Positions 1 through 14,088 of a DNA stretch of 64,000 nucleotides are shown piece by piece. Made by a program: the position numbers and the translations under genes. The stretch lies in the NCBI GenBank assembly GCA_017883235.1, contig JADGNY010000017.1, forward strand, positions 585 to 64,584, read 5' to 3'. Numbering within the stretch: the stretch's first letter is position 1; each line of letters begins with the position of its first letter. Below the pieces are notes generated by a model that saw only the letters and a program-made list of their open reading frames with translations, made no database searches and had not been told where the DNA came from. The stretch is from Thermoanaerobaculia bacterium. Its GTDB lineage: Bacteria > Acidobacteriota > Thermoanaerobaculia > Gp7-AA8.

Positions 1-591
1 CTCCGGCCGCATCTCCTGCAGCCAGTAGAGGAACGCCGCCAGGTTCTCCGCTTGCGGCCGCAGAAAGCGGTTGTCGTCGACATCGCTGGTTCCCTTCATG
101 GCGGCGACGTCGCTAGTGTCATGGAAGTGGTAGACGCGATAGCTTTCCAGGTCCCGCCTGATTCGTTCGTCTTCGAGATTCTTCAGCCTTGATTCCCTGG
201 TTGCTGATGCTATTGGCTGCTTCCACTTGAAAAAAGATTCCTCGTCGTTCCCGGAGGCCGTCTCACTGCCGATGAATACGTCGTCATCGCTTGTGCCCAG
301 GAGGTGGACAAGGTAACCGTCCGTGGTTTCACCGTCGGAAAACATGACCTCGATCGACATATCGGGCGACTGCCTTCGACCAAAGTAGAGCAGCGAGTCC
401 GCACCGCCTTTCATCGCGGTGTACTCGGCTAGCTTCTCGTCGACGATTGCGCGCAGGAAACGGAACACCTCGATCAGGTTCGATTTGCCCGAGCCGTTCC
501 CGCCGATGAAGATGTTCAGCGGTCCCAGCTTCAGGGTCTGCTCCCGGATCGACTTGAAGTTCCGGATCGTCAGTGTTTCGAGCGTGCGCAT
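1..591 (-). CDS. AAA15/ABC-type ATPase, N-terminal part (gene runs off left edge)
   Basis: My own translation of the minus strand from the ATG at 591-589 gives MRTLETLTIRNFKSIREQTLKLGPLNIFIGGNGSGKSNLIEVFRFL... with Walker A GGNGSGKS. It is absent from the ORF track because there is no stop codon inside the window. Confidence 0.75.
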   Translation of the reverse strand, partial: MRTLETLTIRNFKSIREQTLKLGPLNIFIGGNGSGKSNLIEVFRFLRAIVDEKLAEYTAMKGGADSLLYFGRRQSPDMSIEVMFSDGETTDGYLVHLLGTSDDDVFIGSETASGNDEESFFKWKQPIASATRESRLKNLEDERIRRDLESYRVYHFHDTSDVAAMKGTSDVDDNRFLRPQAENLAAFLYWLQEMRPE

Positions 592-627
592 GAGTGTCTT
601 CGCTGAGTATATGTGCTTGGCTACCGG

Positions 628-1392
628 TTAACTCGCGGGCAAACTGGCACTCTCCCTCGCCTCCCTCCTCGTCAGCAGCGGCGGCGGCCGCCACGCGTCG
701 AATTCCGGCGGAAGCAGTTGCAGGATCTCGCCGGCGCGCATGCCGTAGAGGTCGTAGTTGAAGTCGAGCTGTTGGATGACGGCGATCAGGCGGCGGAGGT
801 TGCCGGGGCGGCTGGGAGTCGTTGCGCCGCGTTTGGGGCGGTGGCGTTTCGTGTCCCAGTAGAGGAGATCGATCGCTTCGATGAGGCCCTTGTTCGTGAT
901 GAGATCGCGGCGGAAGCCGAGGTCGTAGATGAAGGCACCGTGCTGGTGGACGGGGGGATGGAGGAGCAGCCGCGCGTTCTGGCGGTGCAGGGTGAAGAGT
1001 CGGTACGGGCCGGCGAGAAGATGGCGGCCTCGCTGCCAGCCGCCGCTCTCGGTGGTGGGGATGTAGTGATAGTCCTCGCGCGGGCGGCGTTTCCCGCTCG
1101 CGTCGATGGGCGAGAGCTGATCGAAGTAGAAGAGGGCCAGCCAGCTCCAAAGGCCGGCATCGTCTTCCGGTGCGGGCACATCCGCCAGGACGCCTGCAAG
1201 ATATTCAGCGGCGTCGAACTTCGTGGCGAACGTACGCGGCTTGATCTCGACCGCACGAGGAAGGGCGGTCGAATAGTCGTCGAGGTAGAGGATGGCTGGA
1301 CTCCCCTGAAACTCCTCGCCGTCGCGGATGCGCTGCAGGAATCCGCGGAGCTCCTCGATTCCTTTGGCGTTGAGGCTTCGGAGTTTCGTCAT
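628..1392 (-). CDS. hypothetical protein, 254 aa, no family recognised
   Basis: ORF 628..1734 trimmed to the ATG at 1392 (MTKLRSLNAKGIEEL...). This ATG shares one base with the TGA of the upstream gene (TGATG). Residue composition looks protein-like. Confidence 0.6.
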   Translation of the reverse strand: MTKLRSLNAKGIEELRGFLQRIRDGEEFQGSPAILYLDDYSTALPRAVEIKPRTFATKFDAAEYLAGVLADVPAPEDDAGLWSWLALFYFDQLSPIDASGKRRPREDYHYIPTTESGGWQRGRHLLAGPYRLFTLHRQNARLLLHPPVHQHGAFIYDLGFRRDLITNKGLIEAIDLLYWDTKRHRPKRGATTPSRPGNLRRLIAVIQQLDFNYDLYGMRAGEILQLLPPEFDAWRPPPLLTRREARESASLPAS

Positions 1393-2138
1393 CAGCGTTC
1401 CCGTCGCGCCGCGCGCCATCCATCGATCAGTGTCTGCCGGTTGCAGAACGCGTCGACCACGTCGTCGATCCAGTACGGCGCCTCGTCCGCGTCGGCCGGC
1501 AGCGGAGAGGTCGCGTATTGCCCGGCCCACTGCAGCCAGAAGTTCCACCACTCGTCGCCTGCCTCGTGCGCATCGTGCGCATCGATCAGTAGGATCTGCG
1601 TGAGCACCTGCCGCACGGCGGCCGGATAGACGAGAGCGAGGAATGCGGCATCGGACCTGGCGACGTCCTGGATATCGTCGACGCGGTTGTTCAGCTCGAG
1701 CACCGGGCCGTTCGGTTCGAAGGCGATTCGCCACGCCTGCTGGCCCAGCGCGCCGGTGAAGCTGACCGGCAGCAACGGCAGCCGTCCGGTGGCCTCCGGC
1801 TTCTGTTCCGAAACGACGATGTCGTCGGCGACCGCGACGACGCGATGCTCGTCATCGACCAGCTTCACGCGGAAGTGAACGAGGCTGGTGCTGTCGATCT
1901 CAGTCAGACGGCGGTCATCGGGAGGAGCGAAGTGCGCGACCGAGCCGCAGTCGAAGCGCATGAACGACGTCCGGTAGTAAGCCTCGATGAAGACGCGCGT
2001 GGTGGGAGCGGCGCCGATGTCGTCGAAGGAAAGGCGCGGATCGAAGACCAGCGTGCCGTCGGCGTCGCGCCGCAGCGTCACGCGGATGTTGGCGCGCGGA
2101 ATGCGGGCGCGTTCAGTGAAGTTCAGTTTCCGCAGCAT
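1392..2138 (-). CDS. hypothetical protein, 248 aa, no family recognised
   Basis: ORF-track product MLRKLNFTERARIP.... The ATG at 2138 lies 26 nt inside the 3' end of the GHKL ATPase gene, which suggests translational coupling. Confidence 0.6.
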   Translation of the reverse strand: MLRKLNFTERARIPRANIRVTLRRDADGTLVFDPRLSFDDIGAAPTTRVFIEAYYRTSFMRFDCGSVAHFAPPDDRRLTEIDSTSLVHFRVKLVDDEHRVVAVADDIVVSEQKPEATGRLPLLPVSFTGALGQQAWRIAFEPNGPVLELNNRVDDIQDVARSDAAFLALVYPAAVRQVLTQILLIDAHDAHEAGDEWWNFWLQWAGQYATSPLPADADEAPYWIDDVVDAFCNRQTLIDGWRAARRER

Positions 2139-4044
2139 TGTCAGGATCGTGCAGGGGATCGTGCAGGCGGACGACGAGGTCGCGCCGCGGATCGAATCCT
2201 TTCATCGAGACCAGGAACTTCGCCGACGACGGGACCAGCTCGAAGGCATTGACCGACGTCGGCCGCAGGCGGACGCCGTCGGCCTGCACGGTAATGCCGC
2301 CGTCGGACGTCAGATCGAAATCGAACGGGCTGTGCTTGCGGAAGGGATTGCCGGCGCGGACGCGGTAGGCGATCTCGCCGCGCAGCGGGCGGCCGACCAT
2401 GGCCGGGTCGGATGCCTTGATGGTAAAGCCGCCCTCGATCCGGGCGATGGTGACGCCGCCCGATCCCGGCGCTGCATCGGTTGAGGCGGTGCCTGGCTTG
2501 CTCTCCCCGGCGGCGGCGCGTACCGGAGCCGGAGCCATGACATCGTCGTGCAGCGACTCTTCCGGCACGTCGATAGAGAAGAGATCGGCCAGGAAATCGC
2601 GAACGCGGCCGGCGGGCGGGCGGGACAACAGCGAGGTCAGGAACGACGCGCTGTTCTTCACGAAACGAAGCGTGTATGGACCGTGGTCGTACAGCGTGCG
2701 GACCTTGTCGGCGCGCTCGGACCAGTCGGTATGCGCGGGGTTTTCGGCGTCGCCGAGGAAGGTGGAAAGGGCCTGATCGTCGATGACGATGAGAGCGCGG
2801 GCGGCCTTTTCGGCGCTTACACGCACGTCCGGGATGGTGATGCCGCGGCGGATGAATCGATGCTCGCCCTTGCGAAGCGCGTCGTCGTGCTCGAGGTAGA
2901 CGTCGAACCAGGAGCTGGCCGCGCGGACGCGTTTGCGCTTGACCAGAATGGGAACGCGGAAGGCGATGCGCTCGCCGGAGCTGAAGCGCTCGCGCAGCGA
3001 GGCGAGCGTCGCCGCTTCGAGGATCGATTCGTCCCATTTCGGTGCGGCGGCGTCACGCTCCGGGAGGACGATTCGCGCGTCGTCATTCTGGGCCAGCGAC
3101 CAGCGGGTGAGCGCGCAGAGCCTTGCGGCGCTGTCGTTGTTTATCGATAGGTTTTCGATCGTTTCGGCGTCGATTCGCAGGCTTCGCGCGGCGTCGACGA
3201 CATCGACTGTCAGATCGCCGCGCAGGATCGGATAGAAATATTGCCGCACCACCGAGTCGGTGACGCGCTCGGGCGACAGCTCGTCGTCGCGGAAGTAGGG
3301 CACCACGATGGAGAGGCCGGGCTCGATGCGGTTGACGCCGAAGTCGTCGGCGAAGCGCTCGAGCAGGATGGGATCCTCGATCGGCAGCGGCTGGCCGTTG
3401 CGCTTTTCGAATCGCGCGAAGAAGCCGTAGGGATAGATCCGCTGGCCGTCGAGGACGTGCGTCTTCAGAACGGACTGTCCGAGGAGGAGGGCGCGATTGT
3501 CGTCGAAACGGCGGGTGATGCCGAAGATTGTGCGGTTGCGCGAGGCGACGGTGAAGACCGCCTTGCCGAGTCCCCAGCGGCCGCGGTCGACGTCGCCCTT
3601 GCTGGAGCGGCCGACGTTGCGCCAGAAGTAGTAGAAGTCATTTTTCCGCTCCTCGCCGGGGTGGTCGAGCTCCGGATCGGCCCGAGGATCCCCGGTGAGG
3701 CCGCGCGTTCCGGAGTCTTCGATGAGGAGATAGGGAACGGCTTCGTCGTCCCGCGGCAGGACGGTGTGAATCGACTTCGCCGCCGCCCGGAGGTGCCCCT
3801 CCAGTCCTTCGAAGTACTCTCTCACCCCCTCGGCGGGAAGCGCTTGGGCCCCCGACGCGAACCGGAACCGGACGCTCACCGGCGAGCGGCTTCGCGGCAG
3901 GCGGGCATCGAGCGAGTTCTGGATCGACTCGCGCACGAGCGCGTCGGCGAGGTCCTGCGCCTTGAAGAACTCGTCATGAACCGGATCGACGTGCACTTCG
4001 CCGGGGTCCATCGACCGGAAATGCCAGGGCGGAAAGCGGGACAT
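2113..4044 (-). CDS. GHKL (Bergerat-fold, MORC/Hsp90-like) ATPase with unassigned C-terminal half
   Basis: ORF 2113..4056 trimmed to the first ATG at 4044 (MSRFPPWHF...). Motifs seen: ESIQNSLDA (N box), IEDSGTRGL (G1) and GRWGLGKAVF (G2). The start lies 8 nt after the higA stop. Confidence 0.75.
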   Translation of the reverse strand: MSRFPPWHFRSMDPGEVHVDPVHDEFFKAQDLADALVRESIQNSLDARLPRSRSPVSVRFRFASGAQALPAEGVREYFEGLEGHLRAAAKSIHTVLPRDDEAVPYLLIEDSGTRGLTGDPRADPELDHPGEERKNDFYYFWRNVGRSSKGDVDRGRWGLGKAVFTVASRNRTIFGITRRFDDNRALLLGQSVLKTHVLDGQRIYPYGFFARFEKRNGQPLPIEDPILLERFADDFGVNRIEPGLSIVVPYFRDDELSPERVTDSVVRQYFYPILRGDLTVDVVDAARSLRIDAETIENLSINNDSAARLCALTRWSLAQNDDARIVLPERDAAAPKWDESILEAATLASLRERFSSGERIAFRVPILVKRKRVRAASSWFDVYLEHDDALRKGEHRFIRRGITIPDVRVSAEKAARALIVIDDQALSTFLGDAENPAHTDWSERADKVRTLYDHGPYTLRFVKNSASFLTSLLSRPPAGRVRDFLADLFSIDVPEESLHDDVMAPAPVRAAAGESKPGTASTDAAPGSGGVTIARIEGGFTIKASDPAMVGRPLRGEIAYRVRAGNPFRKHSPFDFDLTSDGGITVQADGVRLRPTSVNAFELVPSSAKFLVSMKGFDPRRDLVVRLHDPLHDPDNAAETELH

Positions 4045-4052
4045 TGCGGTGC

Positions 4053-4343
4053 TCAACTCGCTTTGCGCAAGGATGCGGGAAGTGACCGGAGGCGGGATGC
4101 GGCTCGATACAGATCGATGGCCCTTTGTGCATTGAGCCAGAACTCAGGAGTGGTCCTGAAGGTCGCGCCCAGCTTGAGCGCCATCTCCGCGGTCACCGAG
4201 GTTCTTCCATTCACGATGCGGTTGATGACCTTGACGTCACATCCAATGTGATCGGCGAGTTGCTTCTGCGTCATCGCCAGAGGCTCGAGAAACTCCTCGC
4301 GCAGGATCTCGCCCGGAGTCGTTGGCATTCTTCGATTCTTCAT
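4053..4343 (-). CDS. higA: HigA-family HTH (XRE) antitoxin
   Basis: Sequence PGEILREEFLEPLAMTQKQLADHIGCDVKVINRIVNGRTSVTAEMALKLGATFRTTPEFWLNAQ matches the HigA pattern. ATG at 4343 is preceded by GAGGAAG and lies 7 nt after the higB stop. Confidence 0.88.
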   Translation of the reverse strand: MKNRRMPTTPGEILREEFLEPLAMTQKQLADHIGCDVKVINRIVNGRTSVTAEMALKLGATFRTTPEFWLNAQRAIDLYRAASRLRSLPASLRKAS

Positions 4344-4350
4344 GGCTTCC

Positions 4351-4641
4351 TCAGTGGTAGTCGACGACATCAACATCTTCGGGGCCTGATTCCGACCAGC
4401 GAAAGACCACACGCCATTGGTCATTTACACGGATGCTGTGAAATCCAGCCCAACTTCCTTTCAGCGACTCGAGCCGGTTTCCAGGGGGTGAGCCGAGGTC
4501 TCGCAGATCGGCCGCGTAATCAAGCATGTCCAGCTTGCGGGCCACGATTCTCGCAAGGTTGATCCAGCCGAAGCGAGCGCTCGCGCGTCCTCTTTCAAAG
4601 AATTCGCGCACTCCTTCCCTGGCAAAGCTTCGAATCGCCAC
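4351..4641 (-). CDS. higB: HigB toxin (RelE/ParE superfamily, plasmid-maintenance killer type)
   Basis: 96 aa. The C-terminus NRLESLKGSWAGFHSIRVNDQWRVVFRWSESGPEDVDVVDYH matches the HigB signature, which ends in DYH. Confidence 0.88.
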   Translation of the reverse strand: MAIRSFAREGVREFFERGRASARFGWINLARIVARKLDMLDYAADLRDLGSPPGNRLESLKGSWAGFHSIRVNDQWRVVFRWSESGPEDVDVVDYH

Positions 4642-4652
4642 CGCTGCCGGTA

Positions 4653-4673
4653 GTATACCTTATAGAGGTATAC
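4653..4673. promoter_or_regulatory. candidate higBA operator palindrome
   Basis: GTATACC-N7-GGTATAC perfect 7-bp inverted repeat in an AT-rich patch, 12 nt upstream of the higB start codon. Confidence 0.4.
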
Positions 4674-4729
4674 CGACGAAGGTTCCTGGAAAACGCTTGG
4701 TTCCACTGCGTCTTCGACGACCTCTTCGA

Positions 4730-4990
4730 TCAGAACTTAACTTCCTGGCTCGATGCCCGCACGTTGCATGTCTCGCAGAGCCAGCCGTGGGAGGTGAGCT
4801 TGAATGGTCCCTCATTCTCGTCGCGGAACAGCGTTCGGGTTTCGTGGCACCAGTCGCAGCGGACGACATGCGGGTTGCCGAAGTGAGGATTGGCCTGCAG
4901 GAACGCCGCGGCCACCTCTTTTTCACCGGCGTTGAGGTCGTCGCTGCGGAGTACTTTTCCCGCCGTCGTTCGAACGATTTGTCGTGTCAT
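4730..4990 (-). CDS. small zinc-ribbon-like protein
   Basis: 86 aa with two CxxC pairs (CDWC...CETC). The start overlaps the stop of the GH130 gene (ATGA). Confidence 0.5.
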   Translation of the reverse strand: MTRQIVRTTAGKVLRSDDLNAGEKEVAAAFLQANPHFGNPHVVRCDWCHETRTLFRDENEGPFKLTSHGWLCETCNVRASSQEVKF

Positions 4991-5985
4991 GAAATCCTCC
5001 CATGCCGGTCGAGCCAGTCCAGAATCTCGCGGATGCTGCCGGTGGCCATGGCGATGCAGGTATCCGCGGCGCCGTAGTAAAGGTTCAGGGTGTCGCCGTC
5101 CGGTGCGACCGTGTAGCCGCAGGGGAAGGTGACGTTATTTACGTCGCCATGAGTCTCGTACGCAGCTTCCGGGCCGAAAACCCATTCGTCTCCGCGTAGG
5201 AGGAGCTCGGCCGGGTTTTCGAGATCGAAAAGAGCCACGCCGAGGCGGTAAAGACTGCCGGCGGGGTTGTAGCGGACGCCGTGGTAGAGCATGAGCCAAC
5301 CGTGAGTGGTCTCGATGAGCGGAGGGGAGAGACCGACTTTGTTGGCGTCCCACCAGCCGCCGCGGCGGGCGTGCAGCATCATGCGATGGCCGCCCCAGCT
5401 TCGCAGGTCAGGCGAATACGAGATCCAGATGTGGGCTCCGCCCTCGGCGATGGGACGGTGAACGAGCGCGTACATACCGTCGATGCGGCGCGGAAGCAGC
5501 GCGGCGTCTTTGTCGTCAGGCTGCATCACCAGGCCGCATCGCTCGAAGTGGATGAAGTCCTCGGTGAGCGCCAGCGAAACGCCGGGACCGCCTTTTCCAA
5601 ACGCGGTGTAGGCGACGGCGTATCGGCCGAGCTCCTCGACCCACGTAATCCGCGGGTCTTCCACGCCCCACAACTCCTCGGGATGGTTCTCGGGATCGGC
5701 GGGGAAGGTGGGATGGGGATCGATGATCCAGTCTCTCACTCCGTCATTCGATCGCGCCGCGCAGAGATGGGACCGTCCGGTGCGATCCTCGACGCGGCAT
5801 AGCAGGAGCGTGGTGCCGTCACGAAGCAGCGTTGCGCCGGCGTTGAAGACGGTGTGGACCGGATACGGCCAGTCAGCCGCGGTGAGAATCGGGTTGGTCT
5901 CGGTGCGATGGAAAAGGGTTTCGTACGTGATGACGGCGGACGGGACGCCGGCGGTTCCAGGGTCTGGATCTCGATGAACAGTCAC
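4987..5985 (-). CDS. GH130-family glycosidase/phosphorylase (DUF377-type beta-propeller)
   Basis: 332 aa. The NPILTAADWPYPVHTVFNAGATLLRDGTTLLLCRVED... pattern and overall length are typical of GH130. There is a 4-nt overlap with the upstream glycosyltransferase gene. Confidence 0.8.
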   Translation of the reverse strand: MTVHRDPDPGTAGVPSAVITYETLFHRTETNPILTAADWPYPVHTVFNAGATLLRDGTTLLLCRVEDRTGRSHLCAARSNDGVRDWIIDPHPTFPADPENHPEELWGVEDPRITWVEELGRYAVAYTAFGKGGPGVSLALTEDFIHFERCGLVMQPDDKDAALLPRRIDGMYALVHRPIAEGGAHIWISYSPDLRSWGGHRMMLHARRGGWWDANKVGLSPPLIETTHGWLMLYHGVRYNPAGSLYRLGVALFDLENPAELLLRGDEWVFGPEAAYETHGDVNNVTFPCGYTVAPDGDTLNLYYGAADTCIAMATGSIREILDWLDRHGRIS

Positions 5986-8288
5986 TGGCGCACCGCCACG
6001 AGTACCTCGGCCTGTGCGCTCAGCGGCAACTGCACCGCGTTCCTCCGCACCTCGTCCGCGCGCATTTCCATCAGCGCAAGAAGAAAGGAGAGCGTCGATT
6101 CCGCCCCTTCGTTTTCATTCACGCGATCAACGTGCAGAGCGTCGCGGCAACCGCCCGTCAGCGGATCGTAGAGCGCCTGGTGCAATTGGTTCTGACCGAG
6201 AAACCAGGTGAAGGCGCGGCGCGCGTGGCCGGTCCAGCGATGATCGCCGGTCGTTCGAAATGCGTGCATGCAGGCCGCCACCGTGGCGCAAGCCTCGACC
6301 GGCTGCTGATCGAACGTCGCCGCGGTCGTGCCGCGCTCGAAGAAGCCATTCGTCCCGACGGGGGCGAAGTATCCTTCGTCGGTCCGTTGGATCGTCGTCA
6401 GCCACTCGAGGGATCGAAGGCCGACCGCTTTCATGTCGTCATCGCCGGTCCAGGATGCGGTGACGATCAACGCCTGCGGTAGCCGCGCGTTGCAGTAGGT
6501 GACGCTGTTCTCGAACCAGGGCCATTCCGGTTGATCGGTACGGCGGAAAAGGCTCAGCAGGCGCTCGGCGATTGCACGGCCTTCCGCCTGTACGCTGCGA
6601 TCGCCTTCGAACGCACGCAGATATTGCTCGATCCCCAGGAGTGCGAATGCCCAGGCGCGCGGACTGCTGAAGCCTGATACGGCAGGGAGCGCGGCATGGA
6701 ACAGTGCTCCGGCCAGACTGTGCCGTCCCGGATCGACGGAGCATCCGACGACGGTTCCCAGCGCCCACAGCGCCCGGCCGTGGCTATCCTCGGAACCTTG
6801 TTCTTCACGCCAGAGCCGGGAGTGCGACATGAAGTTCCGGAACCGTCCCAGCGGACGGTTGAAGGCGTGGCTGACGAATGCCAGGTAGCGCGATGCCAGC
6901 GTGCGCACGATTTTCGGATCGTTCGATCCCGCGTCTTCCAGGAGTGTCATCAGCAGCAGGGCGCGGGCGTTGTCGTCGAGGCAGTAGCCTTCGTCGTAGC
7001 GCGGGACGTTGAAGATGGCGTGCTGCAGCATGCCGGTGTCGTCGGTCATGACGCCGACGTGATCGAGATTGACCTGCGGCAGTTCGGCCGGCCGCGTGGC
7101 CAGCGTGCTGGCGCGGAATGCCGTCCGCAGCCGCTGCGCGTGCTCGACGCGGGCGCGCTCGAACGTCGTCAGATACGACTGGGCGACGGCGGGCCAGAGC
7201 ATCGCCTGCCCATGTGCAGCCGCGCGCAGGCGCATGGCCATGCGTTTCTCCGGATCGTCGAGCAGTCCGATGATCTCGGAGCCGATGGCCGAGGCATCCC
7301 GCCACGGCACGAGGATGCCGCGGTTGCCGGCGAGCAGCTCCTTGGCGTACGGATACGGCGTGGAGATGACGGCCTTTCCCGCGCCAAGCGCGTAGGCCAG
7401 CGTCCCCGAGGTGATCTGTTCGGGATTGAGATAGGGCGTGATGTAGATGTCGGCCGCTGCGAGAAACTCGCACAGCTCGGACTGGCTGACGAAGCGATTG
7501 TGAAAGATGACACTGCCGTCGACGCCGAGTCGCTTTGCCCGTTCTTCGAGCATGAGCCGGTAGCTCTCGCCGTGGCGTTCGATGATGTGCGGATGCGTCG
7601 CGCCGAGGACGATGTAGACGGCGTCGGGGTAGTGGGAAAGGATCGTCGGAAGGGCATCGATGACGTACTCGATCCCCTTGTCGGGCGAGAGCAGCCCGAA
7701 GGTGAGAATGAGTGGCCGCCCTTCCACGCCGAGACGGTCCTTGCTGCCGGAGAACGGAACGTTAGGGATCCCGTGCGGGATCATGTCGATCTTCTGTGCG
7801 GGGACGCCGTGTACGTCGCGGAGGATCTCCGCGCTGCCGTCGGTCATGACCACCAGGCGATCTGAGATCGTGGTGAGCTCGTCCATCACGCGCCGTTGAT
7901 GGGGATTCGGCGCCTGGAGGATGGTGTGAAGCGTCGTCACGATGGGCATGCGAAGCTCGCGCAGCAGCGTCAACAGATGGCTTCCGGCCTTGCCGCCGAA
8001 GATTCCGTACTCGTGCTGCACGGAGATGACGTCGACGGCATTCACGTTCAGGAAGTCGGCCGCGCGGGTGTAGGCGCCGAGGTCGTTGTCGGCCAGCTCG
8101 AAGCGAACGCGGGACGGATAGGCGTGCTGCCGCAGTCCGTCGTTCATGGCCAGGACGAAGCAGTCGAGGTCCGGCCCGGCGGCGGCGATGGCGTCGCTCA
8201 GGTGGGTGGTGAATGTGGCGATGCCGCAGTGGCGCGGCAGGTGATTGCCGAGCAGCGCCACGCGGCGGATGGTCGTTTCCTCAGGCAT
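5982..8288 (-). CDS. family-4 (GT-B) glycosyltransferase fused to an (alpha/alpha)6-barrel-like C-terminal domain
   Basis: 768 aa. The N-terminal ~390 aa looks like GT4 (RVALLGNHLPRHCGIATFT..., ..ADIYITPYLNPEQITSGTLAYALGAGKAVIST..). The C-terminal ~370 aa looks like a six-hairpin glycosidase-like domain; this second call is weaker. Confidence 0.8.
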   Translation of the reverse strand: MPEETTIRRVALLGNHLPRHCGIATFTTHLSDAIAAAGPDLDCFVLAMNDGLRQHAYPSRVRFELADNDLGAYTRAADFLNVNAVDVISVQHEYGIFGGKAGSHLLTLLRELRMPIVTTLHTILQAPNPHQRRVMDELTTISDRLVVMTDGSAEILRDVHGVPAQKIDMIPHGIPNVPFSGSKDRLGVEGRPLILTFGLLSPDKGIEYVIDALPTILSHYPDAVYIVLGATHPHIIERHGESYRLMLEERAKRLGVDGSVIFHNRFVSQSELCEFLAAADIYITPYLNPEQITSGTLAYALGAGKAVISTPYPYAKELLAGNRGILVPWRDASAIGSEIIGLLDDPEKRMAMRLRAAAHGQAMLWPAVAQSYLTTFERARVEHAQRLRTAFRASTLATRPAELPQVNLDHVGVMTDDTGMLQHAIFNVPRYDEGYCLDDNARALLLMTLLEDAGSNDPKIVRTLASRYLAFVSHAFNRPLGRFRNFMSHSRLWREEQGSEDSHGRALWALGTVVGCSVDPGRHSLAGALFHAALPAVSGFSSPRAWAFALLGIEQYLRAFEGDRSVQAEGRAIAERLLSLFRRTDQPEWPWFENSVTYCNARLPQALIVTASWTGDDDMKAVGLRSLEWLTTIQRTDEGYFAPVGTNGFFERGTTAATFDQQPVEACATVAACMHAFRTTGDHRWTGHARRAFTWFLGQNQLHQALYDPLTGGCRDALHVDRVNENEGAESTLSFLLALMEMRADEVRRNAVQLPLSAQAEVLVAVRQ

Positions 8289-8306
8289 GCCTCTTCCCTT
8301 CGCCCT

Positions 8307-8738
8307 TCATGCTGCCGGCGCGGCGACGGCCGCCTCGATGGCGCGGCGCGGGGGCATCATCATGTGCCAGCGCGTCACGACGTCATTCGCGATCACGAAC
8401 TCGAATACCTGGCTGAAGCAGCGCAGGCGCAGGACTTTGCCGCCGTCGACGGCGAGGCCGGTGGCGAGCTGCGTGTCGTATTCGATTTCGCGGACCCACT
8501 GCAGGTCGAGTGAGGCCTGCATGTCGGAGTTTTCGTAGAAGAACATCGACTGGGTGACGGCCAGTGCGACCGGCAGATGCCGGGTTCCTTCGACGAATTC
8601 GCCCGGGCTGACCATGCGCGAGGTGGCGCGGCGCTTGTCGTTGAGCTGCGCGATCCGATCGGTCCCGAGCCGGCGATAAAGGGTCCATCCCAGAATGGCA
8701 ACGGCGATGAAGGCCGCGATCGACAGGTACGTCATCAT
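8307..8738 (-). CDS. membrane-anchored hypothetical protein
   Basis: 143 aa with an N-terminal transmembrane helix (YLSIAAFIAVAILGWTLY) followed by a soluble domain. Confidence 0.55.
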   Translation of the reverse strand: MMTYLSIAAFIAVAILGWTLYRRLGTDRIAQLNDKRRATSRMVSPGEFVEGTRHLPVALAVTQSMFFYENSDMQASLDLQWVREIEYDTQLATGLAVDGGKVLRLRCFSQVFEFVIANDVVTRWHMMMPPRRAIEAAVAAPAA

Positions 8739-8808
8739 GAAGTGCTCCTTTTCGTACGTGGAGCGCGGCAGCAGGGCCGCCGCGCTCCGGGACTGCCTTA
8801 AGCTGCGG

Positions 8809-9054
8809 TCAGAGGCGCGGCTTGGATTCGTTGACCTTCAGCGCCTGACCGTTGACGTCGCGGCCGTCGAGTCCGGTGATGGCCGCGCGGGCCTCGTCGT
8901 CATTGCTGAAGTCGATGAAGCCGAAACCCTTCGATTCGCCGGACTTACGCTCGACGGCGACGTTGGCCGAGATGAGCTTGCCGAAGGGGATGGCCAGATC
9001 GTTGAGCTGGGCATCGGTGACCTGTTTGGAGAGATTTCCCACGTAAAGTTTCAT
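8809..9054 (-). CDS. RRM-type RNA-binding protein
   Basis: 81 aa. RNP2 LYVGNL and RNP1 KGFGFIDF motifs are present. GGAG lies upstream of the ATG. Confidence 0.9.
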   Translation of the reverse strand: MKLYVGNLSKQVTDAQLNDLAIPFGKLISANVAVERKSGESKGFGFIDFSNDDEARAAITGLDGRDVNGQALKVNESKPRL

Positions 9055-9603
9055 TTGGAGCTCCTGCCCGGCCGCGGCCGGCAGCTTTCCCGATGGCGGG
9101 GTACCCGCGTCGGAAGATGGGAGGCTAAGAGGGGTGAGTCCAGAGGTTCTGACTTAGTTCAGAAGGACTGAAGAGCCGAGGAAGTTTCCCCGACGAGTGG
9201 CTACCATACGCGCTTTGGGCGGGGGTGTCACGAGGCAATTTGGGAGGAGGGAAGGGGGTTATGGTGGTCTTCATCCGAAGGTTCCAAGGCTCGAGACGCT
9301 GGTAGGCCGTACATCGAAAAGTGGTTTCAGAAGAGCAAGGATTTTCATTCGAGCAGGCTCCTTCGTGTGACAAACGGCCGGCCTTCCTGGGGTCACCGCC
9401 AGATCGAAGCACGAGACACTTCCGCGATGCGCCATCGGCTGATCAACCAAGGTTCGGCGTCAGATGAAGATAGCGCCAACGCAGTCATCGGGCTTATTTC
9501 CTGGTTCCAGCACGCTGGGGGGGTAGGGAAATCTCGCTCAGCGTCACTCCTCTCTCAGAAGCATGGATAACAAAGGGTTATCAATGCGACCCGAAAGGTT
9601 GCC

Positions 9604-10605
9604 GTGATCGTTCATGCGTGTATCTATCTCCTTGTCGCCTGTGGGCTGAGCGGATGCTTGTTCGGAATCGGGTGGGTACTCACGGTTCTGATGCAGGGCG
9701 ACCTGATGGCCTCGCAGCTCACCACGGCGTGGTTCACGACTTTCAATGGCCTCTTGGTCGGCGCCACGGGGTATGGGCTGCTGTTCTTTATCGCGCGTGA
9801 GCGGCACCGCGTGCAGCTGGCACTCTCGAACGTTTTCAACGTCCCCTCCGAATGTCTGCCCGAGTTCACCCTTCGCCTGGATCGGATTCGCCGGTGGCCC
9901 CTGCGCGGTTACGTTACGGTACTGCTGACGCTTGTCGGCAGCATTGTTCTCATTGGCGCCGGCATTCCATTGCAGGGCCTCGCGCATGTGTACTTGACAA
10001 TCGCAGTCGTCTCCTACTACTGCATTGGTGGCTACATGCTGATGATTCTGGTGGCAATTCTCGGCGTGTTCGACTACGTCAATGACAACTCTTCGCCTGA
10101 TCGCTCGCAGCGGTTTAGCCTCAAGGCGCCACTGCGGTCGATCGAGGCGAAGACGATCGACTTGTATCTGATCATCAGCGCCTTGTTGGGACTTGTGGCG
10201 ATTTATGTCGCCGTTCGAACTACATTGACAGCCTTCCCGAAGACGGCCCCTTATTACGACCTGATGGTATTGCCGCTGTTCTTTTTTGTCCCGGCAACGC
10301 TCGTCTACAGCTTCTACCCGCGCTATGTCCTTCGAGAAGTCTGGGAATCTGATACATACGAGCTGCTTGAGCGGCTCGTGCCCGACTCTTTGCTCGACGG
10401 GAACGATGACCCTAAGGGACGACTCGAGTTGCGCAAGCTCTTGATTGAGGTGAAAGCGAAACTGATCGAGGAGCGTAAGGCGACACCGATTCTCAGCTTT
10501 CGCGACGCGCCGGCGCTGACACTTGCGGCCTTCACCGCCGCTCAGTTCTTGCTGCAGAAAGATGCCGTCCTGGTGAACTTTCTCAAATCGATTTTCAAGT
10601 GGTGA
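9604..10605 (+). CDS. polytopic membrane protein, unknown family
   Basis: 333 aa with about 6-7 hydrophobic helices and a charged helical C-terminus. The start is a GTG, so it is uncertain. GC is lower than in the flanks. Confidence 0.6.
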   Translation: MIVHACIYLLVACGLSGCLFGIGWVLTVLMQGDLMASQLTTAWFTTFNGLLVGATGYGLLFFIARERHRVQLALSNVFNVPSECLPEFTLRLDRIRRWPLRGYVTVLLTLVGSIVLIGAGIPLQGLAHVYLTIAVVSYYCIGGYMLMILVAILGVFDYVNDNSSPDRSQRFSLKAPLRSIEAKTIDLYLIISALLGLVAIYVAVRTTLTAFPKTAPYYDLMVLPLFFFVPATLVYSFYPRYVLREVWESDTYELLERLVPDSLLDGNDDPKGRLELRKLLIEVKAKLIEERKATPILSFRDAPALTLAAFTAAQFLLQKDAVLVNFLKSIFKW

Positions 10606-11938
10606 TAGCTCGGGCCACGCCGCCCGCGAATGCCGAAAGCAACGTCCAGTTCCGCGCCTTCGTCAACGTGCGGAGGGTCATTGCCACGCCCGCTGCCGTG
10701 GTATCGAAGTCGCCAAAAAAGAGCTCGTTCATGAGCTGGTGATTGCGTAAACGATCTGCCTCGACAACGATCGTGCGAAAGCGTCTGCTCGACCATTGCA
10801 GGATGTCACGGAACAAGGCAAGCTGAATCGCCTGATTCAAACGACCGATTTTGCCTGGTGCTTCTGACAGCTCGCTTGCGGCAAGCCGATCGTGGTGCAA
10901 CCGATCAGCGAGAAACGCTGCTACATCACGGTAACTGAGTAGCATTCGCGTAAGCGCCGTGCCGCTTGCCGCCGGATGAACTTGGCCAGCTTCACCATAA
11001 AAGAAAAGCCTGTCAAGCGCGCGACGTTTGATGCGAACCACGGGGATGATGCCGCCAAGAAAGGAACGCTTACGGGGATCCGCAATGAATTTGCTATAGG
11101 GCGACTTGCGAACAACGAATTCGAACTCTGCACTGAGGTTAGTGCTAGGCCGAAGTTCGCGTGCAGGGATGATCAGTACGATGTGGAGTTGGCCGTCACT
11201 GGTCGGGAACGCCTCTACGTAGGCCGCGTGTTCGCTTAGTGAGAGATTGTGCAGCGCGACCGGCATCAGCGTGCCCGTCATTGGAAAGGTTGCGCCGTGC
11301 AGTAGGTAGTAGCCAGCAATACGGCCACATCCTTCTGCCATGATGATGGGCGACTGATGCCCCATGCAGTCGATTGCTAGTCTTGCTGTAATCCTTTCGC
11401 CGTTGGCCATGATCGTGAGACCAGTGCGCCCGCGCGCATAGCTGTAGAAGGTCTGCCCAAATGCGACCACACCGCCGCGCTCCTGCGTACGTTGGAGTAG
11501 CAGACAAGTGAGCGCGGTCGTGTTCCACAGACGATATGATCCCTCGCTCCGATAGGTGGCACCATCGAAAGCGATGAAATCCATCGAGTCGAGCGCCCAG
11601 TCGGCCGCGCTCGCTAGGTCCGCGTTACGCGTAAGCGCCTCTTCCGTGGTGACCCAGTACTTTGTCACCGCCGGCCGCTCGTTGCGCTCAAGTACAAGAA
11701 CGCGTGACACGCGACTTAGCTCCGATGCCAGGAGGAGCCCAGCGACACCGGCGCCGAGTATCACGACGTCGTAGTGTGCTTGCTGCGATAACCCTTTGTT
11801 ATCGGCTTTCGCGGAGTGCGCGTGACCGAGTGGCAGGTCGCCGCGGGCACGCTTACGGAAACACTCTGGGATGTCGCTATCGTGGGTGGCGGCCCCGCAG
11901 GTACGATAGCGGCGCTTCATCTTGCGCGAGGTGGTCAA
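10595..11938 (-). CDS. lycopene-cyclase-family-like FAD flavoprotein (start uncertain)
   Basis: Dinucleotide-binding motif DVVILGAGVAGLLLA and a late motif FFYGEAGQVHPAASGTA. The ~50 aa before GxGxxG look non-native, so the true start is probably downstream of 11938. Confidence 0.6.
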   Translation of the reverse strand: MTTSRKMKRRYRTCGAATHDSDIPECFRKRARGDLPLGHAHSAKADNKGLSQQAHYDVVILGAGVAGLLLASELSRVSRVLVLERNERPAVTKYWVTTEEALTRNADLASAADWALDSMDFIAFDGATYRSEGSYRLWNTTALTCLLLQRTQERGGVVAFGQTFYSYARGRTGLTIMANGERITARLAIDCMGHQSPIIMAEGCGRIAGYYLLHGATFPMTGTLMPVALHNLSLSEHAAYVEAFPTSDGQLHIVLIIPARELRPSTNLSAEFEFVVRKSPYSKFIADPRKRSFLGGIIPVVRIKRRALDRLFFYGEAGQVHPAASGTALTRMLLSYRDVAAFLADRLHHDRLAASELSEAPGKIGRLNQAIQLALFRDILQWSSRRFRTIVVEADRLRNHQLMNELFFGDFDTTAAGVAMTLRTLTKARNWTLLSAFAGGVARAITT

Positions 11939-13012
11939 CGCGTGGTTGTGCTCGAGCGGGCGTTGTATCCGCGCGAGAAAGTGTGTGGCGACGCACTAAT
12001 TCCTGATGCAATTCGAGCGCTGAGTCGCGCCGGACTGCTGGAGGCTGTCGAGCGCCGCGCAGCCGAGACGTCGATGCTGCAGGTGTTTAGTCCGTCGATG
12101 ATTGGGATGACACTTTCGATGCGCGCACTCACGATTAAGCGTGTCGAGCTGGACGCGATACTTGCTGAGGCAGCAGTGGATGCAGGCGCCGTCGTAGCGC
12201 AAGGACACGTTGAGCGGGTCGACTCGGGCGAGGTGGCGCAGCTTGCAATTCGCGGCGTTCAGGGATCGCTGCGGGCAAAGGTCGCGATCATTGCTACAGG
12301 CGCGGATGCGCGGTTGCTGTCTCCGTTGGGCATGCTCTCACGTGCCGAACCTAGCGTGATCGCGGTGCGGCGATACATCCGCTCCAGCGTGAAGCTAGAT
12401 CACCTTGTCTTCTCATTCGACCGAACCATCGCTCCGGGGTACGCGTGGCTCTTTCCCTTGCGGGACGGCGAGTTCAACGTCGGCTGCGGAATGGCATACC
12501 GTCATCATCGAGTCAACCTGTCTGAAACGCTCGATCGTTTTCTATATAAGTTCGAGCCACTCCGCGAGGTCGCGGAGAACATCACACACATGATGCCTCT
12601 GAGGGGCGCCGTGCTCCGATGCGGCCTCAATGGCACCATCGCATTGCGGCCGCCAAACGTGCTTGCGATCGGAGAAAGCCTCGGCGCGACGTTTCCCCTG
12701 ACTGGTGAGGGTATTGGCAAGGCAATGGACACCGGCGAGCTCGCCGCTGGCATTGTCCTGCGCGCACTCGCTGCGAGCGACCTCTCGATCCTCGCCTCGT
12801 TTCCCGCTGCGCTCGATTCTCTTCGCGCACGATACCGCGGCTACGAGATCGCCGAACGCTGGATAAGTTCTCCCTGGCTCGCTGATCTCGTGATCCTGCT
12901 CGGTCGACGCAGCCGTTATGCTGCTAGCTGCGCGTCAGCCATCCTCAACGAGACCGCGGACCCCAGAGCGCTCTTCTCGATTTCCGCGCTGCTGAAAATG
13001 CTGTTCTCCTGA
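11816..13012 (+). CDS. geranylgeranyl-reductase-family FAD-dependent oxidoreductase
   Basis: Motifs DVAIVGGGPAGTIAALHLA and REKVCGDALIP are present. The start is GTG at 11816 or 11822. Confidence 0.75.
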   Translation: MRVTEWQVAAGTLTETLWDVAIVGGGPAGTIAALHLARGGQRVVVLERALYPREKVCGDALIPDAIRALSRAGLLEAVERRAAETSMLQVFSPSMIGMTLSMRALTIKRVELDAILAEAAVDAGAVVAQGHVERVDSGEVAQLAIRGVQGSLRAKVAIIATGADARLLSPLGMLSRAEPSVIAVRRYIRSSVKLDHLVFSFDRTIAPGYAWLFPLRDGEFNVGCGMAYRHHRVNLSETLDRFLYKFEPLREVAENITHMMPLRGAVLRCGLNGTIALRPPNVLAIGESLGATFPLTGEGIGKAMDTGELAAGIVLRALAASDLSILASFPAALDSLRARYRGYEIAERWISSPWLADLVILLGRRSRYAASCASAILNETADPRALFSISALLKMLFS

Positions 13013-14049: not shown

Positions 14050-14088
14050 TTAAGAGGCGCTCAACTCCGGGCTTCAATCTTGAGAGGA

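What the first reader, a model, noticed from the sequence alone, without database searches (positions are those of the whole stretch)
1..4641. higBA-headed six-gene string: GHKL ATPase, two family-less proteins and an AAA15 ATPase (candidate uncharacterised defence/conflict system)
All six ORFs are on the minus strand, and the junctions are tight enough to suggest co-transcription. The junctions are +7 nt (higB/higA), +8 (higA/GHKL), -26 (GHKL/248 aa), -1 (TGATG, 248 aa/254 aa) and +36 (254 aa/AAA15). The ~640-aa protein has clear Bergerat-fold motifs (ESIQNSLDA, EDSGTRG, GRWGLGKAVF), but I cannot assign its ~400-aa C-terminal part. The 248-aa and 254-aa proteins match nothing I recognise. The last gene has an AAA15/ABC-type Walker A (GGNGSGKS) and runs off the window. 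Two unrelated NTPases, unknown partners and an adjacent toxin-antitoxin pair are the usual pattern of phage-defence loci. MORC-like GHKL ATPases and AAA15 ATPases both occur in known conflict systems. This gene order does not correspond to any named system I know (not PARIS, Gabija, Septu, Lamassu, Wadjet, BREX or DISARM).
Basis: partly seen in the sequence, partly recalled or inferred. Interest (0 to 1): 0.75.

Follow-up and report, generated by a model that had tools for sequence, protein, structure and literature searches.

The report
Three-gene GHKL ATPase cassette, PDC-M33-like
The six-gene string is three separate modules: a HigBA toxin-antitoxin pair, the start of the HEC-01 candidate defence pair, and between them a widespread, unnamed three-gene cassette (a GHKL clamp ATPase plus two proteins of unknown function) that is a distant sister of the untested PADLOC candidate PDC-M33.

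Summary
All six minus-strand ORFs, their junctions (+7, +8, -26, -1, +36 nt) and the Bergerat motifs are present as described. They are not one system.

- **Conserved unit.** In 80 related genome loci from six phyla, only GHKL -> 248 aa -> 254 aa is conserved: 73 loci are intact, 5 are cut by contig ends and 2 are decayed.
- **higBA.** In a relative with 95% protein identity, higBA is absent and the whole intergenic region differs.
- **AAA15 gene.** It is HEC-01A (E 4e-54). In 61 of 75 related loci a DUF4276/TOPRIM partner (HEC-01B) follows it.
- **GHKL protein.** The model (pLDDT 77) matches the ATPase-plus-transducer regions of Topo VI-B, MutL/MLH1, GyrB and Hsp90. It ends in an Ig-like beta-sandwich.
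- **254-aa protein.** It folds confidently (pLDDT 90) but has no structural match in PDB or BFVD.
- **Database coverage.** None of the three proteins hits Pfam, NCBIfam or PDB sequences.
- **Link to PDC-M33.** The ATPase is homologous to PDC-M33A (hhalign 99.6%, residues 7-444). That candidate has the same gene order and sizes. The other two proteins fail the PDC-M33B and PDC-M33C (DUF6339) models.

Best reading: a divergent PDC-M33-like, probably anti-mobile-element cassette driven by an ATP-gated clamp. Function and effector are unproven. Moderately interesting; a new variant of a known, uncharacterised kind.

The parts
2113..4044 (-). Gene A: 643-aa GHKL ATPase with a transducer domain, a disordered linker and a C-terminal Ig-like beta-sandwich. 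It is the core ATPase of the cassette.
   Evidence: Motifs I-III are invariant in 76 homologues. AF2 model pLDDT 77, pTM 0.67. Foldseek against PDB: Topo VI-B 4.6e-8, MLH1 2.3e-6, GyrB, MutL, TRAP1, Topo II ATPase and PMS2, all at probability about 1.0. PADLOC PDC-M33A 8e-23. hhalign to a PDC-M33A profile: 99.6%, E 3.4e-24, residues 7-444.
3295..4044 (-). Bergerat (GHKL) ATP-binding domain, about residues 1-250. Carries E39-x3-N43-x2-D46, D110-x-G112-x2-G115 and G155-x2-G158-x-G160.
   Evidence: Translation, invariant columns and structural matches. Domain boundaries are approximate, read from the DSSP string.
2581..3282 (-). Transducer-like middle domain, about residues 255-488. Includes the invariant R399 and the E434-N-P-A-H438-x2-W441 motif, which the PDC-M33A consensus shares as E-x-P-x-H-x2-W.
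   Evidence: Foldseek alignments of 450-530 columns cover the ATPase plus transducer of GyrB, MutL and Topo II. The hhalign alignment reaches residue 444. pLDDT is 85-94 over most of this region.
2116..2457 (-). C-terminal all-beta (Ig-like sandwich) domain, residues 530-643. It follows a low-confidence linker (residues 489-528).
   Evidence: DSSP shows strands only and pLDDT is 84-93. Local Foldseek hits to beta-sandwich proteins (p53 core, IL-18BP, Bbp, a nanobody) at E 4e-3 to 1e-2.
1392..2138 (-). Gene B (p248): 248-aa protein of unknown fold. It overlaps gene A by 26 nt and always follows it.
   Evidence: Follows the ATPase in 79 of 80 loci. 2,079 50%-identity clusters at E<=1e-3, nearly all 240-265 aa. 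No Pfam, NCBIfam, PADLOC or PDB-sequence hit. No similarity to PDC-M33B.
628..1392 (-). Gene C (p254): 254-aa, mostly helical protein with no known structural relative. Its start overlaps the stop of gene B (TGATG).
   Evidence: AF2 pLDDT 90.3, pTM 0.86. Foldseek best E is 1.7 in PDB and 3.5 in BFVD, with TM below 0.2. Invariant H124, R201, Q208, D214 and E230. Only a marginal local match to DUF6339/PDC-M33C (hhalign E 1.2e-3, probability 19%).
4351..4641 (-). higB: RelE-fold toxin of a type II toxin-antitoxin pair. A separate module.
   Evidence: PF05015, 4.6e-19. Absent in the 95%-identity relative L001.
4053..4343 (-). higA: HTH antitoxin. It ends 8 nt before the GHKL start codon. A separate module.
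   Evidence: TIGR02607, 1.2e-28, above its cut-off; HTH_3, 3.5e-9.
4653..4674 (.). Two GGTATACC palindromic boxes, 12-33 nt upstream of the higB start. Likely the HigA operator and promoter region, which would now drive the downstream genes.
   Evidence: Inverted and direct repeats found. The operator role is inferred from how HigA autoregulation is known to work.
1..591 (-). N-terminal 197 aa of HEC-01A, an ABC-type (AAA_15/21) ATPase. It is the first gene of a separate two-gene candidate defence system. The rest of the gene and the partner gene lie beyond the window edge.
   Evidence: PADLOC HEC-01A, 4.3e-54. Homologues are 363 aa and, in 61 of 75 loci, are followed at +6 or -4 nt in the examples inspected by a 224-235-aa DUF4276 protein that is HEC-01B (3e-76).

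Best explanation
**Shown.** Window 1-4641 holds three independent modules placed end to end.
1. A HigBA type II toxin-antitoxin pair. It is a lineage-specific insertion that replaced the native region upstream of the ATPase gene.
2. A self-contained three-gene cassette, A-B-C. A is a GHKL ATPase with a transducer domain and a C-terminal Ig-like domain. B is p248. C is p254, which has no known structural relative. The cassette is inherited and transferred as a unit across at least six bacterial phyla.
3. The 5' part of HEC-01A, which belongs to the ABC-ATPase plus TOPRIM (DUF4276) candidate system HEC-01.

The cassette is a divergent sister of the untested PADLOC candidate PDC-M33. The ATPase is homologous over about 440 residues and the gene order and sizes are the same. 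Partners B and C have diverged beyond, or almost beyond, detection.

**Inferred.** The cassette is an anti-mobile-element (phage or plasmid) defence or conflict system. By analogy with GyrB, Topo VI-B and MutL, protein A dimerises through its Bergerat domains when ATP binds. It closes as a clamp on a nucleic-acid or protein ligand. The transducer domain passes that state on to partner subunits. B and/or C would then be the sensor or effector, most plausibly acting on DNA.

In this genome the 8-nt higA-A junction and the loss of the native upstream region suggest that the cassette is now transcribed from the HigA-controlled higBA promoter.
For: **Modularity**
- The A-B-C order and strand are intact in 73 of 80 loci. 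Five more are cut by contig ends and two are decayed.
- Identities of A, B and C to the window co-vary across 71 loci (r = 0.96-0.99).
- Clustering of flanking ORFs finds no fourth conserved gene and no conserved small upstream ORF.
- The 121 nearest neighbours hit 155 different Pfam families.
- L001 (95% protein identity) has p86-A-B-C without higBA or AAA15. The DNA alignment shows identical flanks around a replaced intergenic region.
- GC content is 0.58 for higBA and AAA15, against 0.63-0.68 for the cassette.

**HEC-01**
-. It is described as an ABC ATPase plus TOPRIM in bioRxiv 10.1101/2024.01.29.577857.

**GHKL fold**
- Invariant motifs and Foldseek matches.

**Link to PDC-M33**
-.
- PDC-M33 is defined as a three-family cassette with 98 occurrences.

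**Defence context**
- The window itself has a toxin-antitoxin pair and HEC-01 on either side.
- L001 has an SNF2 helicase, an integrase and a SIR2/TIR protein nearby.
- In Syntrophales the cassette sits between toxin-antitoxin modules and a type I-C CRISPR-Cas locus.
- In Nitrospirota it lies directly downstream of a PLD-SNF2 helicase, with an MmeI-type R-M gene and a HigB-like/HTH-M78 pair further upstream.
- SNF2, ZorD, DrmD and DpdE-like proteins and a type I methyltransferase occur among the nearest neighbours.
- All five PDC-M33 plasmid loci lie beside dcm/R-M genes, and one also beside Shedu.

**Dispensability**
- A shared internal deletion is seen in L083, L086 and L087.
- L068 and L031 carry disrupted copies.
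Against: - No experiment exists for this cassette or for PDC-M33.
- No nuclease, protease, NADase, pore or other effector domain is recognisable in A, B or C.
- Most nearest neighbours are ordinary genes, such as response regulators, dehydrogenases, NUDIX and ArgR. One complete Nitrospinales genome has the cassette among mainly housekeeping genes. The defence-island signal is therefore real but modest, and I did not test it statistically.
- The cassette's GC content matches the host and gives no sign of recent transfer.
- B shows no similarity to PDC-M33B (probability 0.5%). C shows only a 45-column, 19%-probability match to DUF6339. Homology of the whole system to PDC-M33 is therefore unproven.
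- The GHKL model is only moderately confident in the ATP-lid region (pLDDT about 50-60 for residues 120-170).
- Co-transcription with higBA is inferred from spacing only.
Confidence: 0.55

Rival explanations
1. All six genes form one higBA-headed defence operon in which two NTPases (GHKL and AAA15) cooperate with two unknown partners.
For: All six genes are on one strand with tight junctions (+7 to +36 nt). No terminator-like site above chance lies between them. Close relatives L085 and L005 also carry HEC-01A within a few kb of the cassette.
Against: Among the 80 GHKL loci, higBA lies near the cassette in 2 (opposite strand) and AAA15 in 1 (5 kb away). 76 of 80 HEC-01A loci lack the cassette. 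The 95%-identity relative has neither flanking module. AAA15 has its own conserved partner, DUF4276. GC content differs between the modules.
Confidence: 0.04
2. The A-B-C cassette is not an immune system. It would instead be an accessory DNA-metabolism, chromosome-maintenance or chaperone-like machine, for example a MutL/Topo VI-B-style clamp for repair or topology, or an Hsp90-like client system. It would sit in variable regions by chance or as cargo of mobile elements.
For: The structural neighbours are housekeeping enzymes: Topo VI-B, MutL/MLH1, GyrB and Hsp90. Most nearest neighbours are ordinary genes. The Nitrospinales copy lies among hisS, fur and rlmN. No effector domain was found. GC content is host-like. 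No copy was found on viral contigs.
Against: Distribution is patchy and rare: 117 confirmed relatives in a pattern-based scan of one genome from each of 185,579 species. The cassette decays and is deleted in close relatives. It repeatedly sits beside CRISPR-Cas, R-M, SNF2/PLD helicases, SIR2/TIR and toxin-antitoxin modules. Its sister PDC-M33 was found embedded in defence systems and sits beside dcm/R-M on five plasmids.
Confidence: 0.25
3. Only the ATPase is shared with PDC-M33. B and C would be unrelated proteins recruited independently, making this an independently assembled system rather than a diverged PDC-M33.
For: p248 against a PDC-M33B profile gives probability 0.5%. p254 against DUF6339 gives 19% over 45 columns only. 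PADLOC B and C models give no hit, even for the divergent Rhizobium member. The window family lacks the ~75-aa upstream gene and the dcm adjacency seen in all five PDC-M33 plasmid loci.
Against: Gene order is the same and sizes are nearly the same (A about 630-aa, B about 250-295 aa, C about 250 aa). The weak C match falls at equivalent positions, around the D-x-LW-x-WL motif. One p254-family member (P0176) carries a precomputed PF19866 (DUF6339) hit. The weak B alignment pairs similar C-terminal patterns (hydrophobic-P-hydrophobic, then W) at comparable positions.
Confidence: 0.3

Closest known systems
PADLOC phage-defence candidate PDC-M33 (Payne et al., bioRxiv 10.1101/2024.01.29.577857; cassette CAS_00129, three protein families; C = Pfam DUF6339)
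   Same: Both are three-gene, same-strand cassettes with tightly spaced or overlapping genes: an ATPase of about 630 aa, then a protein of about 250-295 aa, then one of about 250 aa. The ATPases are homologous through the GHKL and transducer domains, including an E-x-P-x-H-x2-W motif. Both are patchily distributed and found near other defence genes. Neither has been tested experimentally.
   Different: p248 and p254 do not match the PDC-M33B and PDC-M33C models or DUF6339, so PADLOC would not call this locus. The five reference plasmid loci have an extra ~75-aa gene in front of A and sit beside dcm (with vsr and/or a restriction endonuclease in most). The window family has neither feature. The window ATPase aligns to only the first ~280 positions of the PDC-M33A HMM.
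GHL clamp ATPases: Topo VI-B, GyrB/Topo II ATPase region, MutL/MLH1/PMS2, Hsp90/TRAP1
   Same: Bergerat fold with motifs I-III, followed by a transducer-type domain. These are the best structural matches. The likely working principle is the same: ATP-driven N-terminal dimerisation passed on to a partner or C-terminal module.
   Different: No sequence-level match to any PDB chain or Pfam HATPase family. No MutL C-terminal endonuclease domain and no Toprim/5Y-CAP partner were detected. The C-terminus is an Ig-like sandwich. The gene sits in an accessory cassette, not a housekeeping locus.
Prokaryotic MORC/paraMORC GHKL ATPases linked to restriction-modification systems (Iyer, Abhiman & Aravind 2008, cited in PMC8011034) and GHKL-fused defence proteins such as VcSduA (GHKL-Shedu; PMC12137116)
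   Same: [quoted passage not shown] VcSduA shows that a GHKL domain can gate a defence nuclease.
   Different: No HATPase_c_3 or DUF4263 match. There is no fused nuclease, and the partners are two separate proteins of unknown function.
HEC-01 (ABC ATPase plus TOPRIM/DUF4276)
   Same: The truncated AAA15 gene is HEC-01A (4.3e-54). Its relatives have the HEC-01B partner.
   Different: It is a neighbour of the GHKL cassette, not part of it. Its phage protection was negative in one study and positive in another (PMC12881386).
HigBA type II toxin-antitoxin system
   Same: The toxin comes first, followed by an HTH antitoxin. It has an upstream palindromic operator and matches both family models.
   Different: Nothing unusual except its position, 8 nt in front of the cassette. 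It probably now supplies the cassette's promoter.

Membership tests
PADLOC PDC-M33 | Protein A matches the PDC-M33A model | tested here: inconclusive
   The window protein scores 8e-23 but covers only model positions 24-281 of 627. The Arthrobacter reference scores 3.5e-82 over the full length. Profile-profile comparison gives 99.6%, E 3.4e-24, over residues 7-444. The two are homologous, but the window protein is not a close member.
PADLOC PDC-M33 | Protein B matches the PDC-M33B model | tested here: not met
   No PADLOC hit at E<=0.1. hhalign of p248 against a PDC-M33B profile gives probability 0.5%.
PADLOC PDC-M33 | Protein C matches PDC-M33C / Pfam DUF6339 | tested here: not met
   No PADLOC or Pfam hit, even at E<=10. 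hhalign gives E 1.2e-3 and probability 19% over 45 columns. One family member (P0176) has a precomputed PF19866 hit that my own scan did not reproduce.
PADLOC PDC-M33 | Gene order A>>B>>C on one strand | tested here: met
   Cassette definition.
PADLOC PDC-M33 | Context seen in the reference plasmid loci (not a formal criterion): a ~75-aa gene before A and adjacency to dcm/R-M | tested here: not met
   Present in all 5 plasmid loci. The window family has no conserved small upstream ORF and no recurrent methylase neighbour.
GHKL (Bergerat-fold) ATPase superfamily | Motif I E-x3-N-x2-D, motif II D-x-G-x2-G and motif III G-x2-G-x-G | tested here: met
   E39/N43/D46, D110/G112/G115 and G155/G158/G160 are invariant in 76 sequences.
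GHKL (Bergerat-fold) ATPase superfamily | Fold similarity to solved GHKL ATPase plus transducer structures | tested here: met
   Foldseek: 30 PDB hits at E<=1e-3, all Topo VI-B, MLH1/PMS2/MutL, GyrB/Topo II or TRAP1. TM normalised to the target is 0.35-0.50. Model pLDDT is 77.
GHKL (Bergerat-fold) ATPase superfamily | Match to a Pfam HATPase_c-type family, or to a PDB sequence | tested here: not met
   No Pfam, NCBIfam or PDB-sequence hit.
GHKL (Bergerat-fold) ATPase superfamily | ATP binding and hydrolysis | not testable with these tools
   Needs biochemistry.
Topoisomerase VI-like A2B2 enzyme | A partner subunit with 5Y-CAP/winged-helix and Toprim domains (Spo11/Top6A-like) | tested here: not met
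   The p254 model has no PDB match. p248 and p254 profiles give no PDB or Pfam hit. The p248 structure was not predicted.
HigBA type II toxin-antitoxin | HigB-like RelE-fold toxin upstream of a HigA HTH antitoxin | tested here: met
   PF05015 4.6e-19 and TIGR02607 1.2e-28, both above their cut-offs. The gap is 7 nt with the toxin first.
HEC-01 (PADLOC) | HEC-01A ABC ATPase | tested here: met
   4.3e-54 on the 197-aa fragment. A full-length relative scores 3.5e-135.
HEC-01 (PADLOC) | Adjacent HEC-01B (TOPRIM/DUF4276) partner | not testable with these tools
   The partner would lie beyond the window edge, and the exact contig is not on record. It is present in 61 of 75 related loci. One example was confirmed as HEC-01B at 3e-76 and DUF4276 at 5.9e-53.

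The most novel reading that the evidence does not exclude
The cassette is a new kind of three-subunit, ATP-gated DNA-processing immune machine. A Topo VI-B/MutL-like clamp (A) would control a catalytic partner with a fold not yet seen in any solved structure (p254, perhaps together with p248). That would make p254 a new nuclease or DNA-modifying fold. It would also make this family, together with PDC-M33, a large and so far unrecognised branch of GHL-ATPase-based immunity.
Probability: 0.12. Interest if true: 0.85.

Novelty: new variant of a known kind. Interest (0 to 1): 0.55.

Why it matters
- GHKL clamp ATPases drive topoisomerases, mismatch repair, Hsp90 and eukaryotic MORC silencing. Their roles in bacterial conflict systems are mostly predicted, not studied.
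- This cassette is common in environmental bacteria. The word-indexed and exhaustive searches find about 500 to 2,000 sequence clusters per protein, across at least six phyla.
- It is missed by Pfam and NCBIfam. PADLOC matches only the N-terminal part of its ATPase.
- It contains a confidently folded protein with no structural relative.
- If it defends cells, it would add a widespread system and probably a new effector fold. It would also give a second, very divergent lineage for working out how the untested PDC-M33 candidate works.
- The practical lesson for annotation is that tight same-strand spacing made three separate modules look like one operon.

Tried and rejected
- **Extending the contig leftwards.** An exact-protein look-up of p254 is not on record, so the rest of HEC-01A and its partner could only be inferred from relatives.
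- **The 86-aa CxxC protein (4730-4990) as a fourth gene.** It is adjacent in L001. L002 also has an 86-aa ORF at that position, but tblastn shows no detectable similarity to p86. It is conserved only in close relatives, so I rejected it.
- **A conserved small ORF upstream of A, as in PDC-M33.** None found.
- **Sequence-profile searches of A, B and C, and of PDC-M33 A, B and C, against PDB.** No meaningful hits.
- **Foldseek of p254 against PDB and BFVD.** Nothing.
- **Viral contigs.** No relative of the ATPase.
- **Plasmid collection.** It holds only one member of the window family (the Rhizobium leguminosarum megaplasmid) and five clear PDC-M33 loci.
- **Literature.** No paper mentions PDC-M33 or DUF6339 in its main text. 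GHKL defence papers describe other architectures: VcSduA, SLFN-pAgo-GHKL and CapK.
- **Considered and rejected on PADLOC, NCBIfam and Pfam evidence.** Shedu type I-D (no DUF4263), MADS, and Gabija, PARIS and Septu. The last three match only the separate AAA15 gene, and more weakly than HEC-01 does.

Full report
**1. Observation**

- higB, 4641-4351
- higA, 4343-4053
- a 643-aa protein, 4044-2113
- p248, 2138-1392
- p254, 1392-628
- an AAA15-type gene that starts at 591 and runs off the window

I re-derived the junctions from the sequence as +7, +8, -26, -1 and +36 nt. The quoted motifs are present. Pfam and NCBIfam confirm HigB-like toxin (4.6e-19), HigA (TIGR02607, 1.2e-28) and AAA_15 (5e-10). 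They return nothing for the three middle proteins, even at E<=10. The organism is a Thermoanaerobaculia-class acidobacterium, judging from the closest homologues.

**2. What travels together**

The 643-aa protein has more than 1,600 homologous 90%-identity clusters. A scan of one genome per species returned 80 loci from Acidobacteriota, Pseudomonadota, Nitrospinota, Nitrospirota, Desulfobacterota and Planctomycetota.
- The order ATPase -> p248 -> p254 on one strand is intact in 73 loci.
- Five more loci are cut by contig ends.
- One has a ~1.7-kb insertion in p248, and one has a truncated ATPase without partners.
- Identities of the three proteins to the window co-vary (r = 0.96-0.99).
- higBA lies near the cassette in two loci only, downstream and on the opposite strand. 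AAA15 appears in one locus, 5 kb away.
- Clustering of all flanking ORFs found no fourth conserved gene and no conserved small upstream ORF.
- The 121 nearest neighbours hit 155 different Pfam families.

The unit is therefore three genes, not six.

**3. higBA is an insertion**

The closest relative (L001, 95% protein identity) has RRM protein - 143 aa - 86-aa CxxC protein - ATPase - p248 - p254, followed by unrelated genes on the other strand. It has neither higBA nor AAA15.

The DNA alignment shows near-identity up to the stop codon of the 86-aa gene and again from the ATG of the ATPase. Between these points lie 119 unrelated nucleotides in L001 and 685 nt carrying higBA in the window.

Two GGTATACC palindromes sit 12-33 nt upstream of higB and are typical of a HigA operator. 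No terminator-like element above chance separates the genes. In this genome the cassette is therefore probably read from the higBA promoter. This is an inference from spacing only.

GC content also separates the modules: 0.58 for higBA and for the AAA15 fragment, against 0.63-0.68 for the cassette.

**4. The AAA15 gene is HEC-01A**

The fragment matches PADLOC HEC-01A at 4.3e-54. I examined 80 metagenomic loci with relatives.
- The gene is 363 aa.
- In 61 of 75 loci it is followed by a 224-235-aa protein, at +6 or -4 nt in the examples inspected.
- That protein is HEC-01B (3e-76) and Pfam DUF4276 (5.9e-53).

HEC-01 was described as an ABC ATPase plus TOPRIM candidate that gave no protection in the original assays. 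A later study reported it as protective.

Only 4 of the 80 HEC-01A loci have the GHKL cassette nearby, and all four are close relatives of the window. In three of them (L083, L086, L087) the cassette is reduced to one ~190-aa remnant. The remnant joins ATPase residues up to 135 to p254 residues 130-254. This is a shared internal deletion and shows that the cassette is dispensable.

**5. The ATPase**

E39/N43/D46, D110/G112/G115 and G155/G158/G160 are invariant. The AF2 model has pLDDT 77 and pTM 0.67. Its 30 PDB matches at E<=1e-3 are all GHL ATPase-plus-transducer regions: Topo VI-B (4.6e-8), MLH1, GyrB, MutL, TRAP1, Topo II and PMS2.

After a low-confidence linker (residues 489-528) comes an all-beta domain (530-643). 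It gives local matches to Ig-like sandwiches.

No PDB chain or Pfam HATPase family is detectable by sequence. The GHKL assignment therefore rests on motifs plus fold.

**6. The partners**

- **p254.** It folds confidently (pLDDT 90.3, pTM 0.86), is mostly helical, and has no match in PDB (best E 1.7, TM below 0.2) or BFVD. Conserved polar residues include R123, H124, R201, Q208, D214 and E230. No catalytic motif can be assigned.
- **p248.** An exhaustive search finds 2,079 50%-identity clusters, nearly all stand-alone proteins of 240-265 aa. It has no family or PDB-sequence match.

**7. Relation to a catalogued candidate**

The ATPase N-terminus hits PADLOC PDC-M33A (8e-23). A tblastn search of plasmids led to five clear PDC-M33 loci in Arthrobacter, Paenarthrobacter, Deinococcus, Priestia and Planococcus. 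I confirmed the model matches on the Arthrobacter locus:
- A, about 630-aa: PDC-M33A, 3.5e-82
- B, about 285 aa: PDC-M33B, 6.4e-30
- C, about 252 aa: PDC-M33C, 1e-31, and Pfam DUF6339, 3.9e-34

Each locus also has a ~75-aa gene in front of A and sits beside dcm, with vsr and/or a restriction endonuclease in most.

PDC-M33 is one of 145 untested candidates found by 'guilt-by-embedding'. It is defined as a three-family cassette with 98 occurrences.

Profile-profile comparison with the window family gives:
- the two ATPases: 99.6%, E 3.4e-24, over residues 7-444, including an E-x-P-x-H-x2-W motif shared by the window protein and the PDC-M33A consensus
- p254 against DUF6339: a 45-column match at E 1.2e-3, probability 19%
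- p248 against PDC-M33B: nothing

A divergent member of the window family on a Rhizobium leguminosarum megaplasmid also fails the B and C models. Its proteins match p254 at 99.2% and p248 at 97.4% by hhalign.

The window cassette is therefore a sister lineage of PDC-M33. It has the same architecture and a homologous motor. Partner homology is unproven, and PADLOC would not call the locus.

**8. Is it defence?**

For:
- Distribution is rare and patchy, and copies decay in relatives.
- In Syntrophales the cassette lies between toxin-antitoxin modules and a type I-C CRISPR-Cas locus.
- In Nitrospirota it lies directly downstream of a PLD-SNF2 helicase, with an MmeI-type R-M gene and a HigB-like/HTH-M78 pair further upstream.
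- L001 has an SNF2 helicase, an integrase and a SIR2/TIR protein nearby.
- SNF2, ZorD, DrmD and DpdE-like proteins and a type I methyltransferase occur among the nearest neighbours.
- PDC-M33 itself sits in R-M and Shedu contexts.

Against:
- Most nearest neighbours are ordinary genes.
- One complete Nitrospinales genome shows a largely housekeeping context.
- No effector domain is recognisable.
- No experimental data exist.

I put the defence or conflict role at roughly 0.55-0.6.

**9. Mechanism (inferred)**

By analogy with GyrB, Topo VI-B and MutL, the ATPase should dimerise through its Bergerat domains when ATP binds. It would act as a clamp, and its transducer domain would signal to partners. 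The invariant R399 is a candidate phosphate sensor.

p248 and/or p254 would then be the sensor or effector, most plausibly acting on DNA. The Ig-like domain is a candidate docking module.

None of these steps is shown.

**10. Verdict**

- The six-gene interpretation is not supported.
- The candidate defence system idea survives for the three-gene core.
- Novelty: a new variant of a known but uncharacterised kind (PDC-M33-like GHKL cassettes).
- Interest is moderate (0.55). It would rise if p254 proves to be a new effector fold.

Noticed in passing
window 4730-4990 (-): An 86-aa protein with two CxxC pairs (weak Pfam zf-like hit, E 0.009) sits just upstream of the cassette in this window and in close relatives (L001, L004, L083, L085). 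It is not linked to the cassette in other lineages.
   Followed up: partly
window 4045-4729, compared with L001 9882-10000: The whole region between the 86-aa gene and the ATPase differs from the relative with 95% protein identity: 685 nt with higBA here, 119 unrelated nt there. The flanks are near-identical. This is a clean module replacement that removed the cassette's native upstream region.
   Followed up: yes
window 4653-4674: Two GGTATACC palindromic boxes spaced 15 nt apart lie just upstream of the higB GTG start. They look like a HigA operator.
   Followed up: partly
L083 7390-7965; L086 2845-3295; L087 193-670: Three metagenomic relatives carry the same internal deletion. It fuses ATPase residues up to 135 to p254 residues 130-254, directly upstream of the same HEC-01A/B pair. 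The cassette has decayed while HEC-01 is intact.
   Followed up: yes
L068 about 10357-12028; L031 2388-3806: Two more damaged copies. A ~1.7-kb insertion splits the p248 gene in a Thermodesulfovibrionales genome. In L031 the ATPase is truncated at residue 485 and has no partners.
   Followed up: no
L164, L165, L166, L167, L168 (plasmids): All five PDC-M33 plasmid loci lie beside a C5-cytosine methyltransferase (dcm), with vsr and/or a restriction endonuclease in most, and have a ~75-aa gene without family matches in front of the ATPase. The Arthrobacter locus also has a Shedu nuclease next to it. This suggests a functional link between PDC-M33 and cytosine methylation or R-M.
   Followed up: partly
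L169-L172 (Syntrophales), 5450-19075: The cassette lies between a nucleotidyltransferase/HicB-type toxin-antitoxin region and a complete type I-C CRISPR-Cas locus. Its p254 homologue (P0180) is indexed in 561 blocks of the assembly collection, so this population is very common in public samples.
   Followed up: no
L174/L175 4076-7252; L013 4330-7854; L006, L060; L001 1-3109: Large SNF2-family helicases (PLD-SNF2, SWIM-SNF2) recur just upstream of the cassette in several unrelated lineages. They match DrmD, ZorD and HmaA models. This may be an occasional functional partnership or only island co-residence.
   Followed up: partly
L163 (Rhizobium leguminosarum pRlX5) 2934-5390 and 9495-10598: The divergent cassette on this megaplasmid is flanked by a VIT-VWA protein and by a protein with an ART-PolyVal ADP-ribosyltransferase domain.
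   Followed up: no
window 1-5000: GC content drops to 0.58 over the HEC-01A fragment and over higBA, against 0.63-0.68 for the cassette and about 0.645 for the neighbouring genes. This fits more recent acquisition of the two flanking modules.
   Followed up: partly
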